Shown here in pieces: positions 1,696 through 13,511 of a stretch of 64,000 nucleotides of DNA. Origin of the DNA: Eledone cirrhosa (Eukaryota); NCBI GenBank assembly GCA_964016885.1, contig OZ024741.1, forward strand, positions 270,940,001-271,004,000, written 5' to 3'. Under the pieces are notes generated by a model that saw only the letters and a list, made by a program, of their open reading frames with translations, ran no database searches and had not been told where the DNA came from. Position numbers and translations under genes: made by a program. The stretch's first letter is position 1; the number at the start of each line of letters is the position of its first letter.

Positions 1696-4208
1696 GTTGT
1701 GAATATTATTGTGTCTTTCGATGTAGTGAATCTCTACACAACGATCCCACACCAATACGGACTAGAAGCAATAGGATTCTGGCTAGAGAAATATCCCAAT
1801 GAGATACCTGACAGAATAGAAAAAAAGCTTCATCACCCAGGGATTAAAATTTATTTTACAGAACAACTTTTACAGAACAACTTTTTTTATTTCAATGGCA
1901 GTACTTACAAGCAAATAAAGGGGACTGCGATGGGTACAAAAGCCGCTCCAACTTATGCCAACTTAGTCATGGCAAACTTGAAAGTCCAGATATATGAACA
2001 GTCCAAATTAAAATACGGATTGAACTTCCACAAATATTTATCAGAGAATTGGAAACGCTACTTGGATGATTGTCTCATTCTCTGGTCTCACACACTCGAC
2101 CAACTAAATGATTTCAAAAATTTAATTAACGGCATCAATAACCACATCCAATTCACAATGGAATACAGCCAAGTTCAACTCCCATTTCTTGACATCTTAA
2201 TCTTAAAAAAAGACACAAACATTGAAACTGACATACACTACAAACCAACAGATTCCAAACAATACCTGCTATTCACCTCCAACCATCCAAAGCACACGAA
2301 GACGAACATCCCTTTTAACCTAGCAAGAAGAATTTGCACAATTGTCTCCAATTATGAAACGCGAAATAAAAGACTTCAAAAATTAAAGGAAATTCTACTC
2401 GAAAGACAGTACCCACCATTACTAATACATAATGGAATGGGTATTGATGAATTACGAAAACAGAAACAAATTCAAGGTACGTCCAATATTCTATCATAAA
2501 TCTCAACACACAACCCAAGAAATGCGGAAGACTATTCACAAGAACATCCCTCTATTGAGACAAGACCCAAGAATGAAAAAAGCCCTTGAAACACACAAAA
2601 TAATCAAAAGCAAAAGACAACCGAAATCACTAAAACATTACTCACCAATGCCAAATTACCTACCACAAACCCACAACCAACTGTCAAAAAATGTGGTCGC
2701 TCTAATTGTGGAATCTGCACTCACCTCATTGAAGGCAACACGTATACATTTCAATCAGGACAAAACTTTGCTGTAAAAAATCACTTCACTTGCTCATCAA
2801 AAAATCTACTTCATGCCATTAAATGTAAAGGATGCAATGAAGATTATATAGGACAAACTAAACTCACGCTCAGAAACAGAATGACAGTTCATCGCCAACA
2901 ATTACGAGATCCAACCACGAGACAGATACCACTAAGTGCACATCTAGACATATGCGCAAGTAATAAGACACCAAAATTCCAAGTCTTCCCATTTTATCTT
3001 TGCGCTGACAATACAACAGAACAAATACGAATAAATAAGAAAAATATATTTATTCAAAAATATAGACCGGCATTAAATATAGTTTAATATACATTATGTC
3101 AATACCATAACATGCTAACCATCCAAACAGACACATACATACACACACACAACTCCCTCCCCCATTTTTACTAATAGAATCATTTTCCTACACACACACA
3201 AAATATATATATTCTCTCCATCTTAACATGCTAACCATACTCCCACACATACATACACACACACACAACTCCCTCCCCCACTTCTACTAATAGAATCATC
3301 TTCCTACACACACACACACACGCGCGCGCGCGCACGCACGCACACACACACACACACACACACACACACACACACACACACACACACACACACACACACA
3401 CACACACACACACACACACGCGCACACACACACACACACACACACACACACACACACAAATAAACATAAATATCCCTACTTTCTTTATTTCAATAGAAAG
3501 TCTGAATTCTGACACCCCAGCGCACCAGCCATATTCACTGAACCAGAACAATTCTTCCCATCCCATTTTTCTTGACCATTATCTTTTGTTTGGCATAAAA
3601 TTCTCTAAAAGGCTATAAAATAAATTCCCAAATTCGGGCGCGAAATTTAATATACTTGTTCGCGTGACAGTCATAATTTCATTTATAACCAATCAAATTA
3701 CATTAAAAAAAAAAAGCCTTCGTGAGCCACTTTTGTTTAAGTAAAAAGAAATTCAAATACAAACTGGCGCGAAAGCTGATGTGTATATTCACGTGACTGC
3801 ATCAACCAACCAAACTTCACTCATATATGAAAAAAATAACCTGAGCCCCCCCCCCCCCCTTGTTTGAAGAACTTTGTAACGCAAACTGGTGTGCGAAATT
3901 TATTATACTTATTCACCAACCAGCCAAATTACTTCTCTAAAAACCTGGCATTTCGAGCCACTTTTTTCCATATAAAACAAGTAACATTTAAAGACCAACC
4001 AGATGTGAGAAAAACCACAGACCCTCCATCTCAATTCTACTTTTGAAAAGCAGAAGAAGTTCGAAACCGGTAAAGGAACCAAATAAATATATATTTAAAA
4101 AAAAAGGACTCCAGTTGCATTTTCGATTTCATCTTTTTTCCTTATACTTTCACTCGTGTAGGACACCTCGGTTATTTTTCACTTTGTAAAAAAGAGCTCA
4201 CTTTCTAA
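1687..4208 (+). mobile_element. 5'-truncated, frameshifted Penelope-like retroelement (RT + Cys-rich linker + GIY-YIG, Neptune-like), with pLTR ending at (TA)n
   Basis: FDVVNLYTTIPH, KGTAMGTKAAPTYANLVM, WKRYLDD, LPFLD, YKPTDSKQYL; downstream frame KKCGRSNCGIC..FTCSSKNLLHAIKCKGCNEDYIGQT..RNRMTVH; stop at 3087. Confidence 0.92.
4040..4075 (+). ncRNA. Hammerhead ribozyme-like motif, U3-A8 core variant
   Basis: ctt TTGAAAA gcag-aagaa-gttc GAAA C CG G TA aag; the sister copy at 63414 has a perfect stem II (GCAG/CTGC). Confidence 0.65.
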
Positions 4209-4290
4209 TATATATATATATATATATATATATATATATATATATATATATATATATATATATATATATATATATATATATATATATATA

Positions 4291-4727
4291 GTTAAAAGAA
4301 TAGAGGTGTAACACACAAGTTATTATATATTGGTAAACGGAATAGAAAATGCTGACAAATTGTTCACAGTTGAAAAATGGTTTAATTAGGAATAAAAGAG
4401 TATTAGTGATTGTATGGGTTAGTATTCAGTTGTGGTTTTAAGTTTTTAAGTTTTTACCGGTTGCGCATTTCTAAATGCTTTTCAAAAATAATTTTGAGAT
4501 AGAGTGTCCGTGCTGTTTGCTCTGATCAGAGCAAACAGCACGGACACTCTATCTCAAAATTATTTTTGAAAAGCATTTAGAAATGCGCAACCGGTAAAAA
4601 CTTAAAAACTTAAAACCACAACTGAATACTAACCCATACAATCACTAATACTCTTTTATTCCTAATTAAACCATTTTTCAACTGTGAACAATTTGTCAGC
4701 ATTTTCTATTCCGTTTACCAATATATA
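4291..4727. repeat. Perfect ~400-bp palindrome of a PLE-terminal cassette between (TA)n tracts, carrying two HHR-like motifs (4452-4488 minus, 4563-4599 plus)
   Basis: Axis at TCTGA|TCAGA 4525/4526, arms 4324-4727; single-arm copies at ~31066-31250 and 48124-48346. Confidence 0.9.
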
Positions 4728-10623: not shown

Positions 10624-11849
10624 GAGTCAGTTCTTAGATATGCCAGCTCTGTGTTTATGGTGTTGATGGTATCAGAGCCTTGGGACATATGAGCTTGTTA
10701 GGGATAATTTAATGTTGTCAGCAGGAATAATCTTAATTCTCATTGGTCAGTTTGTAGATGGTAGTAGGGTTGGTATTTGACCTCAAAGAGGCAGGTGGTG
10801 TTGTAAAGTTCAAACCGTCAGGCAAGATGACAATAGTTCCATATGACTGATTTTCACAAAAGGCATTCCTGGTCAGATATAAATTCAATTGAGTTTTATA
10901 GTATGAAATTCGATACTACAGGTCATTCTTAAATTTATGTGGGGTGGTAATACTGAAAATTATGGTTAGAGTCAAATACTTAGAAAGTTTACAAATAAAA
11001 CAGACTTATGTTGGTTGACTTGTACATACACTCATACCTTCCTCCACAGACACACACACACACAGATACACACAGACATCTACACACACAAATCCATACA
11101 GGTGTGTATATATATGTATGTATGCACAAGTGCATATATGTATACAACAGAGGCCCTCAAATCCAAGTATAAGGCAGACATAAAACGAGGTGGGTGTTAT
11201 TTTTAAAGAAAAGTAAAGTGGGTGTTTGGAAGAGTTATTGTTTAGACTAGACAAAAGTAGAGTGTGATATATATCTTCACAGCAATAGCTTGGGGGCTTT
11301 GGAGCTTAGGCGAATCCCTTAGTACAGATATATATATAGGTACACGCACCCACCCACACTTTTATACCTCTGGATGCGTGTGTATGTATATATACACATG
11401 TGCACTCATACAAGCGAGCAGATACAAATATACTCTTAAGCATACACTCGAACATTTTTCAAATGCAATCTGGGGTATTAGTATTTCGTTGCGTTCACAT
11501 AAGTGTGCACCTTTACGTAATCCCAGTATACACACACAATGCACGGTTGCGGGCACACATTCATGCGTATAGGGTTAGTACCTAGGATAATTGTTCTTCC
11601 TGTGTGGGCCACTCCCACAGGGGGGGGGGTCCTCAGGTTCAATAAACGTGGTTTTGCTGACTCCTAACCAGTAGAGGATCCGGTGGACAATCCACCGTAG
11701 GGACCACAAACTATGGGTGTGTGTTGTTGCCCATCGGTCATTGGTACGGGGTGTAGGGGACCTACATAAGGGAGGGGGTGCGTTGTGGGAGGCCATAACC
11801 GGGGTTTATCCATATAGCTTGAGGAAAGTTCCCGTCCTTAGGTGTCTGC

Positions 11850-13511
11850 AGAGATCGTAATGTGATCTACCAGTGCAACGTGAGGACGGACACCTCCAAC
11901 AAAGCTTATATAGGATTAACCGCATGTGATTTCAAGACCCGGCTATACCAACACAGACATACCTTCCGAAACCCGGCCCGGCGTCACGCCACTACACTTT
12001 CGGGCCACATGTGGGACCTCAAGGATAACAACATTACCTATGATCTCACTTGGAGATTACTGTCTAGAGCCAACTCTTACACGGGAGGACGCCGTCCGTG
12101 CAATTTATGCTCGGAGGAAACTTTACAAATGCTGTTTTCGACGGACCAACTCCTAAACAAGAAAGATGAACTGGTTATTGCATGTAAACACAGATTGCGT
12201 AGGACTTACCTCGCCCTCAAACCCCATAATGACCCGGTTTTAGACTAGGGCTATAACACCCCACTGGCCGATTTTGTAATGGGTAACCCCTGCTTGCTAA
12301 GGTAGACGTAAGATGTTCTTTTATATCTTTTTATCGCTTCCGCTATATTTCCTTCTTCCCCCCATCCCTCCCTAGTCCTTCCACCCCAGTTCTCTTTCTT
12401 TGTCGTCGTCTTTTTCTCGCCCACCCGAGGCAGCCCCTCGGTCCTTTGTAGCCTCAGTACCCCCACCCCCTTCCCCTATTCTATGATAGATTTGGCCGAC
12501 TCCGCTTTTTATAGCAGATGTGTTAGACCCCGGATACTTGCCCTCCTATCCGACCGCTGCCCCTTTTTCGTGCTTTCTATATTTCTTAGTGGTATCTTTG
12601 CTTTAATTTCTCGTTTATCAGTATTTTTTTTTGGGGGGGGGGGGTTCTGAATTAATCTTCCGTATCAAATTTTTACATTTACTTCGTACGAGCTTTTATG
12701 TTGCTTGCACTAGAACTTTTGTATCGTGGCGGCACCCTTAGAGATAGTATTAGTATTCTTTTTCGGGACTCTGAATTATTATTTCGTATTAGTTTACTTT
12801 TTTGCACTGGGTGGTTGCTGGCCTTGTGCCTGGGGTAGAAACCTTTATTTATTATTTCGTGGTAGTTTCTTTAGTATTTTGGGGCCTCACTTGTTGACCC
12901 GTCACCGTAAGATATACTCGGTTTATTACTTATACCTCTTAAAAGGGTCTCATTATAATTCCGTCCCACCTAGTATATTTTTTTAGCCCAGCAGTACCAG
13001 TGAGAGACTTAAGTCGTAGTAACCAGAAATTGTTTATTTTTTTTACATTTAATTGCCTTTTAACACTCTCCATATGTTTCTATATATTTACCCCTTATTG
13101 TTCTACTTATTGTTTCGACTTCCCCCCCCCTCCTCCTCCCTAGTATCTTCTTTGACCTCATGCCCAGCTGTAGTCGGCACTATCAACGCATGAATGGGTC
13201 TCCTCCACCCCCTCTCCCTCTTTCTCCTACTGGCAGGTTTAGCTACCTCTTCCCTCCACAAATTGCCATCATAGAATTATTATGTCTCAACAACAATCTT
13301 TTGACCAATCCTTGTGACAATCACTTTGACCATATATGGAATTACCGCTTGAGAAGCTCGGCTATTCAAATACCAGGATAAAAATGTTCATTTAGTCCAG
13401 AATTAGCCGTCGAAACGGCTTGAGCTCAGCCGTCGGGGTCCTACTCGTTCCTATTACCCACTCTACTACTCTAAGTATTGAGTACTTTGGTGCGTTATGG
13501 TCCACCTGGTT
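11850..13511 (+). mobile_element. PLE 3' fragment: GIY-YIG endonuclease remnant (11862-12248), long 3' UTR and HHR cassette ending at (TA)n
   Basis: VIYQC..YIGLTACDFKTRLYQH..TTLSGHMWDLK..YDLTW..CNLCSEE; assignment of the UTR to this element is inferred from contiguity. Confidence 0.75.
13344..13439 (+). ncRNA. HHR, U3-A8 variant with long stems II and III
   Basis: accgc TTGAGAA g..cggcta/tagccg..c GAAA cggc-ttgagctca-gccG TC ggggt. Confidence 0.7.

What the first reader, a model, noticed from the sequence alone, without database searches (positions are those of the whole stretch)
4040..13439. Natural U3-A8 hammerhead cores in three families
Seen: TTGAAAA (4043, 63417; 4566, 31205-31211 minus, 48298-48304 minus) and TTGAGAA (13349) replace CTGAnGA while stems and the NUH site are kept. 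Known: C3-G8 is a tertiary Watson-Crick pair in the active fold and U3-A8 is a tolerated swap. Inference: the double change is compensatory, which argues for selected activity; standard CUGAnGA searches would miss these.
Basis: partly seen in the sequence, partly recalled or inferred. Interest (0 to 1): 0.72.

Follow-up and report, generated by a model that had tools for sequence, protein, structure and literature searches.

The report
Penelope hammerheads spreading with weakened cores
The motifs are hammerhead-shaped RNA elements at the ends of three very abundant jumping-gene families; their U-A core pair is already in print, but one family fixed a further core change in over 10,000 copies and another kept multiplying while that pair was mismatched, so these ribozymes are likely slow cutters that the elements likely do not need in order to copy themselves.

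Summary
The U3-A8 cores are real. They sit in the terminal repeats (pLTRs) of three autonomous Penelope-like families: A (4043, 63417), B (4566 and the minus-strand copies) and C (13349). Natural U3-A8 is published (Perreault 2011; Cervera 2014), so the headline is known. Genome-wide the pair covaries: U3-A8 23,650, C3-G8 19,006, mismatches 233 and 260 copies (one descriptor). A and B are sisters, so one origin. No named copy is fully canonical. Family B has GCAA for GAAA (A13C) in about 99% of 10,187 copies, including a near full-length element, with no revertant lineage. Family C's trunk ran U3-A8, then a long C3-A8 mismatch phase (23 of 100 listed copies; AU p=1e-66 against a side clade), then U3-A8 again, while the rest of the fold stayed conserved. 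Most copies read through the predicted cut site. Best reading: a conserved but slow, conditional ribozyme that copying does not require. Cleavage is untested. The scan noted U3-A8 many times on other DNA and the family C history before; I found no note of A13C.

The parts
1675..2499 (+). Family A Penelope-like reverse transcriptase, 5'-truncated
   Evidence: Open frame; Pfam RVT_1 E 1.8e-5, under the curated cut-off
2590..3087 (+). Family A GIY-YIG endonuclease with CX4CxxC linker; inverted second copy at 1136-1591
   Evidence: GIY-YIG E 0.0017, under cut-off; same domain lies about 1 kb upstream of family A motifs in L018, L099, L212
4040..4075 (+). Family A minimal hammerhead: U3-A8 core 4043-4049, stem II 4050-4062 (broken by two private changes), GAAA, palindromic stem III, predicted cut after 4072
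4324..4727 (.). Head-to-head family B pLTR stub, perfect 202-bp arms, in a (TA)n tract
   Evidence: (I6); its centre lies 42 bases upstream of U3, where B copies cluster
4563..4599 (+). Family B hammerhead-like motif: U3-A8 core 4566-4572 plus A13C (GCAA at 4587-4590), 3-bp A-U stem I
4452..4488 (-).
11823..12248 (+). Family C GIY-YIG-type endonuclease end, 1.1 kb upstream of the 13349 motif
   Evidence: same domain ends the intact 786-residue RT-EN frame of L248; no Pfam hit for this piece
13344..13439 (+). Family C long hammerhead: core TTGAGAA 13349-13355, long stem II to 13411, GAAA 13412-13415, stem III 13416-13432, predicted cut after 13434; private G-G mismatch in stem I; belongs to the subfamily just after the return from C3-A8 to U3-A8
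31180..31215 (-). Family B motif, U3-A8 plus A13C (core 31206-31212)
34094..34302 (.). Head-to-head family C stub that starts inside loop II and so lacks positions 3-9
46285..46426 (.). Shorter head-to-head family C stub starting in stem III
48273..48308 (-). Family B motif, U3-A8 plus A13C (core 48299-48305)
63414..63449 (+). Family A motif with intact stem II and one change in the stem III palindrome; copy starts 40 bases upstream of U3

Best explanation
The named sites are type I hammerhead folds with a U3-A8 core in the terminal repeats of three autonomous Penelope-like retrotransposon families, and they likely act as slow, conditional (dimer- or protein-assisted) cutters that likely help process element RNA but are likely not required for copying. 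Shown: location beside RT and GIY-YIG frames, genome-wide 3-8 covariation, A13C fixed in family B, a C3-A8 phase on family C's trunk, conservation of the rest of C's fold, and read-through of the predicted cut site in most copies. Inferred: reverse transcription starts in the tail downstream of the motif and runs through it, so the template must be uncut (or re-joined) there; fast cutting would remove the priming tail, which would make weak cores tolerated or favoured, while weak selection keeps the fold and tends to restore the 3-8 pair.
For: U3-A8 and C3-G8 outnumber mismatches about 90 to 1. U3-A8 families vary stem II with pairing kept (gcag/ctgc, gcatt/aatgc, gatgg/ccatc, gcat/atgc). On family C's trunk, core and stem columns outside the search pattern changed at 1 of 27 against 100 of 243 free columns (Fisher p 3e-5), and 1 of 26 against 63 of 314 within the mismatch phase (p 0.027), while single copies decay at about 2% everywhere. 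Tolerance of damage: B has C13 in 97 of 100 listed copies, non-C13 copies number 116 genome-wide with U more common than A (52, 29, G 19 of the 100 listed, hand count), 50 of 51 tail-anchored copies have C13 and none A13, and L211 has ORF1-like, RT and EN frames between two direct pLTRs that both read GCAA. C3-A8 copies form a grade of 10 successive trunk branches, 9 starred, about 0.27 changes per site. 25 of 30 tail-anchored A copies and 24 of 30 B copies contain the whole core upstream of the cut site. In print: ribozyme mutants do not affect insertion in vitro and cutting needs the element's protein (PMC11167929 passages); A13 changes cost 10-100 fold and C3 or G8 changes over 100 fold (PMC4075628 passage); Naiads thrive without canonical motifs (PMC8557442 passages).
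Against: No cleavage was measured and no raw RNA reads were available. Conservation of C's fold during the mismatch phase could mean that C3-A8 with G7 is still a working core. Conservation of B's fold after A13C is not significant (0 of 24 against 18 of 259 to 24 of 270, p 0.12-0.45). The U to C to U history is one event each way, rests on hand-picked copies from the first 70 Mb of one contig and on a root chosen by divergence, and recombination was not tested. Genomic copies only record templates that escaped cutting, so they cannot measure how much RNA is cut.
Confidence: 0.55

Rival explanations
1. One reading: U3-A8 is a compensatory swap that keeps an efficient ribozyme, cleavage is required, and the odd cores are rescued in context (element protein, dimer, or for family C a register shift in which G7 pairs with C3 and an extra A follows).
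For: Genome-wide covariation; return to U3-A8 on the trunk and conservation of the fold in the mismatch phase; U3 to C and A7 to G arose on the same branch; the young C form folds as a full hammerhead monomer; protein-assisted cleavage is reported for one element.
Against: A13C is fixed with no revertant lineage; in a pairwise mutagenesis study only the G3-C8 swap showed strong rescue (PMC9901934 passages); most copies read through the cut site; no pile-up of copy ends at the cut site.
Confidence: 0.2
2. The fold is kept as a non-catalytic signal (binding site for the element's protein, or part of the internal promoter), and none of these motifs cuts in vivo.
For: Copy ends cluster at a fixed point, likely the RNA start: 39-43 bases upstream of U3 in 47 of 101 A copies, 34-44 upstream in 21 of 60 B copies, and inside loop II in 12 of 44 C copies, so the conserved 3' half of C's motif is the first 45 bases of the likely transcript. 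B's lowest-energy fold hides the core.
Against: Across families the catalytic letters and the 3-8 pair are kept while stems covary, which a purely structural role would not need; in C conservation stops at the end of stem I (tail 4 of 13 columns changed).
Confidence: 0.2
3. No current selection: U3-A8 arose once or twice long ago and hitch-hikes; copy counts reflect a few founders.
For: Counts are copies, not events; A, B and two further RT-linked families share one clade; no direct C3-G8 sister of A, B or C was found.
Against: Trunk-level conservation in C; compensated stem II changes between families.
Confidence: 0.05

Closest known systems
U3-A8 minimal hammerheads of Schistosoma mansoni Cercyon PLEs (Cervera and De la Pena 2014, PMC4209133; parts 1-2 of 4 read, supplement searched for four terms, one of two files not searchable)
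   Same: Type I minimal motif in pLTRs, palindromic stem III, U3-A8 in place of C3-G8 (about 1,300 hits there), mostly single truncated copies, low activity expected.
   Different: Here U3-A8 is the larger class under one descriptor; B adds A13C; C has long stems II and III and a mismatch phase; A, B and C lack the extra base between 9 and 10.1 that the paper calls conserved.
Natural core variants of Perreault et al. 2011 (PMC3088659; passages read)
   Same: Reports natural C3-G8 to U3-A8 covariation, earlier shown active in vitro.
   Different: The passages seen list A6C, U15.1-A16.1 and insertions, not A13C; no lineage history.
PAc Poseidon element of Anolis (PMC11167929; passages read)
   Same: pLTR hammerhead upstream of the tail where reverse transcription starts; unprocessed RNA is the main substrate; no read ends at the cut site.
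   Different: Canonical C3-G8 core; dispensability shown only in vitro, whereas B and C are natural, genome-scale cases.
Neptune-like (A, B) and Hydra-like (C) Penelope clades (PMC8557442; passages read)
   Same: A and B have the CX2-5CxxC linker and two cysteines between GIY and YIG; C lacks the second pair and has a different linker.
   Different: Clade names rest on motif reading and, for C, on an earlier scan note; no tree with reference proteins was built.

Membership tests
Minimal type I hammerhead of metazoan PLEs | Core (C/U)UGAN(G/A)A with a Watson-Crick 3-8 pair | tested here: met
   A 99 of 100, B 100 of 100, C 75 of 100 listed copies are U3-A8; not met by C's C3-A8 subfamilies (23 of 100)
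Minimal type I hammerhead of metazoan PLEs | G12-A13-A14-A15.1 (families A and C) | tested here: met
Minimal type I hammerhead of metazoan PLEs | G12-A13-A14-A15.1 (family B) | tested here: not met
   C13 in 97 of 100 and 50 of 51 copies; B is filed as hammerhead-like, not canonical
Minimal type I hammerhead of metazoan PLEs | Stems I and II with G10.1-C11.1, palindromic stem III, UH site | tested here: met
   Family forms; dimer folds pair stem III. Stem I is only 3 bp in A and B and is not in their lowest-energy folds; three named window copies have private stem defects
Minimal type I hammerhead of metazoan PLEs | Extra nucleotide between 9 and 10.1 | tested here: not met
   G10.1 follows A9 directly in A, B and C; the paper describes it as a usual, not descriptor-level, feature
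Minimal type I hammerhead of metazoan PLEs | Self-cleavage at the UH site | not testable with these tools
   Only assembled contigs were listed; copy-end test gave no peak
Endonuclease-bearing Penelope-like element | RT followed by C-terminal GIY-YIG | tested here: met
   A in window, L212; B in L209-L211; C in L248, L257
Endonuclease-bearing Penelope-like element | Direct pLTRs round the frame, inverted stubs, tail, (TA)n targets | tested here: met
   L211 and L248 have direct pLTRs; head-to-head stubs in (TA)n; architecture as in PMC3846280 passages
Neptune clade (A, B) | CX2-5CxxC linker plus CCHH motif | tested here: met
   Read from the translations
Neptune clade (A, B) and Hydra clade (C) | Placement in an RT tree with reference elements | not tested
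   No reference proteins were fetched
Non-LTR retrozyme | Non-coding tandem repeats of 170-400 bases | tested here: not met
   All three families are tied to coding elements and are dispersed

The most novel reading that the evidence does not exclude
This genome holds two natural knock-down experiments on a retroelement ribozyme. Family B amplified to over 10,000 copies through at least three subfamilies with a doubly altered core (U3-A8 plus A13C). Family C's single active lineage crossed a long C3-A8 mismatch valley and returned to U3-A8 without losing the rest of the fold. Either Penelope elements are selected for attenuated ribozymes that spare the reverse-transcription priming tail, or these are undescribed working cores (U3-A8-C13; C3 pairing with G7 in a shortened core) rescued by the element's protein.
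Probability: 0.35. Interest if true: 0.65.

Novelty: new variant of a known kind. Interest (0 to 1): 0.42.

Why it matters
Why Penelope-like elements carry hammerheads is stated as unclear in print, and the one in vitro test found cleavage dispensable. Families B and C give matched natural variants, one base apart from their relatives and with intact young elements available for C (L248), so the question of whether cutting is needed, harmful or only tuned can be tested directly. The U3-A8 swap alone matters only for search descriptors: under one descriptor it is over half of the short motifs in this genome.

Tried and rejected
Rfam scan: no hammerhead among 150 of 165 listed matches. RNA evidence: no RNA holder listed and contigs only; laying four runs on family B's end covered it in two runs (two organism codes) with no other letter at position 13 and did not cover it in the other two, which says nothing on expression or cutting. 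Constraint on B's fold between subfamilies: not significant. A tree to count independent origins of U3-A8 was dropped because few C3-G8 motifs could be tied securely to an RT. First family C tree was confounded by tails and redone. A recurrent CTGAGAA repeat among the C3-A8 hits (L201, L202) has no stem I pairing and was not counted as a hammerhead. C3-G8 cores with a non-A at 13 number 127, below their control of 966, so no B-like C3-G8 family of size was seen. The window's minus-strand TTGAAAAGCA at 39711-39717 is not a hammerhead. Papers not held: Lunse 2017, Nelson and Uhlenbeck 2008, Przybilski and Hammann 2007, Scott 2013; any of them, or supplements I could not see, may list A13 or C3-A8 variants. 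Searches for 'hammerhead ribozyme' with 'A13C' and 'hammerhead', 'G8A', 'inactive' gave 0 papers; one search listed none on lineage history of PLE cores, judged by titles and abstract starts.
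Full report
Observation. The window is G000:C2:270,940,001-271,004,000 of a 3.0-Gb animal assembly. Each sits in a type I hammerhead layout with a UH site. The named copies are not pristine: 4043 has a broken stem II, 63417 a changed stem III palindrome, 13349 a G-G mismatch in stem I, and all family B copies read GCAA where the core has GAAA. A lax descriptor on 800 kb of evenly spaced genome plus the window gave 64 hits against 25 on the reversed sequence; C3-G8 with GAAA scored 18 against 0 and U3-A8 with GAAA 8 against 1. Rfam listed no hammerhead among 150 of 165 matches, missing the window's C3-G8 motifs as well.

What they belong to. All three families are ends of coding Penelope-like elements. 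Family A follows an RT (1675-2499) and GIY-YIG (2590-3087) in the window and in other loci. Family B follows its own RT and GIY-YIG; L211 holds 455-, 654- and 134-residue frames between two direct terminal repeats. Family C follows the domain at 11823-12248, and L248 holds an unbroken 786-residue RT-EN frame between direct repeats. A and B are sisters; C is distant (RT 21% identical to B). So the three families stand for at most two origins of U3-A8. Pattern counts are 6,790, 10,187 and 5,252; tail patterns give 12,239 for A and 13,894 for B.

With one descriptor (core, 9-24 bases, GAAACSSGTH; pairing not checked; long motifs such as C excluded) the counts were C3-G8 19,006, U3-A8 23,650, C3-A8 233 and U3-G8 260, with reversed-pattern controls of 318, 174, 84 and 120. 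Mismatches are about 1%, and those listed are largely single decayed copies of the large families. These are copies, not events: the listed C3-G8 hits are mostly one 310-bp tandem repeat and the U3-A8 hits mostly family A. Across U3-A8 families stem II differs while staying paired. The covariation is real.

It is also known. Perreault et al. 2011 reported natural U3-A8 (passages). Cervera and De la Pena 2014 reported about 1,300 U3-A8 minimal motifs in Schistosoma Penelope-like elements and low activity of such motifs in vitro (parts 1-2 of 4). The scan's own notes hold it many times.

Family B. Position 13 is C in 97 of 100 listed copies. Only 116 copies genome-wide have another base, and among the 100 listed U (52) exceeds A (29) and G (19) by hand count, as expected from decay with no revertant lineage. 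In copies picked by their tail, independent of the motif, 50 of 51 with the core have C13 and none A13 (the set was 30 unselected loci plus 19 regions chosen because the motif pattern had missed them). Three subfamilies, with median divergence 0.9-2.2% from their own majority, all share it. A13 changes are cited as costing 10-100 fold (PMC4075628 passage). Whether B's fold is still constrained could not be shown (0 of 24 against 18 of 259 columns, p 0.19). I did not find A13C in print (four supplement terms), but four key papers were not held.

Family C. Of the first 100 listed copies 75 are U3-A8, 23 C3-A8, 2 U3-G8 and none C3-G8 (hand count). I fetched 19 C3 loci, the U3-G8 locus and 20 U3 loci, and added a few earlier ones. 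Of 70 copies, 60 aligned over 200 bases and 38 went into the final tree (350 bases or more, one per locus; L229 left out as a lone C3 change inside a U3 clade; position 3 masked). The tree is a ladder: old U3-A8, then 15 C3-A8 rows along 10 trunk branches (9 starred, about 0.27 changes per site), then U3-A8 again, with the window's copy just after the return. Two changes are forced, and one C3-A8 clade is rejected at p-AU 1.45e-66. The root is the most diverged copy, and end branches shorten towards the young end; recombination was not tested. Core and stem columns not fixed by the search pattern changed at 1 of 27 along the trunk against 100 of 243 free columns (p 3e-5), and at 1 of 26 against 63 of 314 inside the mismatch phase (p 0.027), whereas single copies decay evenly at about 2%. 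U3 to C and A7 to G fall on the same branch, so a shifted C3-G7 pair is possible and untested. Single changes at C3 or G8 are cited as costing over 100 fold. Earlier notes on this genome describe the same history; I saw them after these tests.

Copy ends. Tail-anchored copies mostly contain the whole core upstream of the predicted cut (A 25 of 30; B 24 of 30). Their upstream ends cluster 39-43 bases before U3 in A (47 of 101) and 34-44 in B (21 of 60; an 11-copy cluster at -71 is likely an indel artefact), and inside loop II in C (12 of 44; 18 further rows are mostly diverged tails). I read these points as the RNA start; that is inferred and was prompted by earlier notes. No peak at the cut site was seen. 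These insertions therefore came from RNA that was uncut or re-joined at the motif, in line with an in vitro study in which ribozyme mutants did not affect insertion and cutting needed the element's protein (PMC11167929 passages), and with clades that thrive without the motif (PMC8557442 passages).

Mechanism. Most likely (0.55) the motif is a slow, conditional ribozyme. Copying starts in the tail and must pass through it, so weak cores cost little and may help, while weak selection keeps the fold. Rivals: efficient and required cleavage with rescued odd cores (0.2), a non-catalytic signal (0.2), pure hitch-hiking (0.05). No cleavage was measured; only contigs were available.

Verdict. Observation partly confirmed, interpretation partly supported. 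The headline is already known; the fixed U3-A8 plus A13C core and the trunk-borne mismatch are variants of a known kind that make the open question of hammerhead function in these elements testable. Interest 0.42.

Noticed in passing
window 10618 (-), 51571 (-), 25442 (-), 49644 (+), 62265 (+): Five canonical C3-G8 hammerhead motifs from three further repeat families, plus a decayed relative of the 25442 family at 50852-51020.
   Followed up: partly
L171-L200; L098: A 310-bp tandem repeat with a C3-G8 minimal hammerhead in each unit, in head-to-head arrays; it dominates the listed C3-G8 hits and looks like a non-LTR retrozyme.
   Followed up: no
L203, L204, L205, L213, L216, L220, L112, L115, L118, L170: At least seven further U3-A8 motif families; two are tied to RT-EN frames of the A/B clade (L205, L213).
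   Followed up: partly
L201:2223 (+), L202: A small repeat reading CTGAGAA, a hairpin and GAAACCGGTT, recurrent among the C3-A8 hits, with no stem I pairing; unexplained.
   Followed up: partly
L206; list: A C3-G8 family occurs both with GGAAAC and with one A fewer in many copies, and two other small families show a non-A at position 13.
   Followed up: no
window 14580-19719: Two tandem copies of another Penelope-like element (697-codon open frame 16969-19062) for which no hammerhead was found within 2.5 kb downstream.
   Followed up: partly
window 5956-6900 (-), 26115-26528 (-), 40643-43991 (+): Remnants of other mobile elements by their translations: a DNA-transposon-like frame and non-LTR retrotransposon frames (labels recalled, not searched).
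   Followed up: no
window 56362-60000: A long strand-skewed minisatellite with 55-61-base units.
   Followed up: no
L209:5040-5830; window 3087-4040: The long 3' untranslated regions of families A and B contain microsatellite tracts that travel with the element.
   Followed up: no
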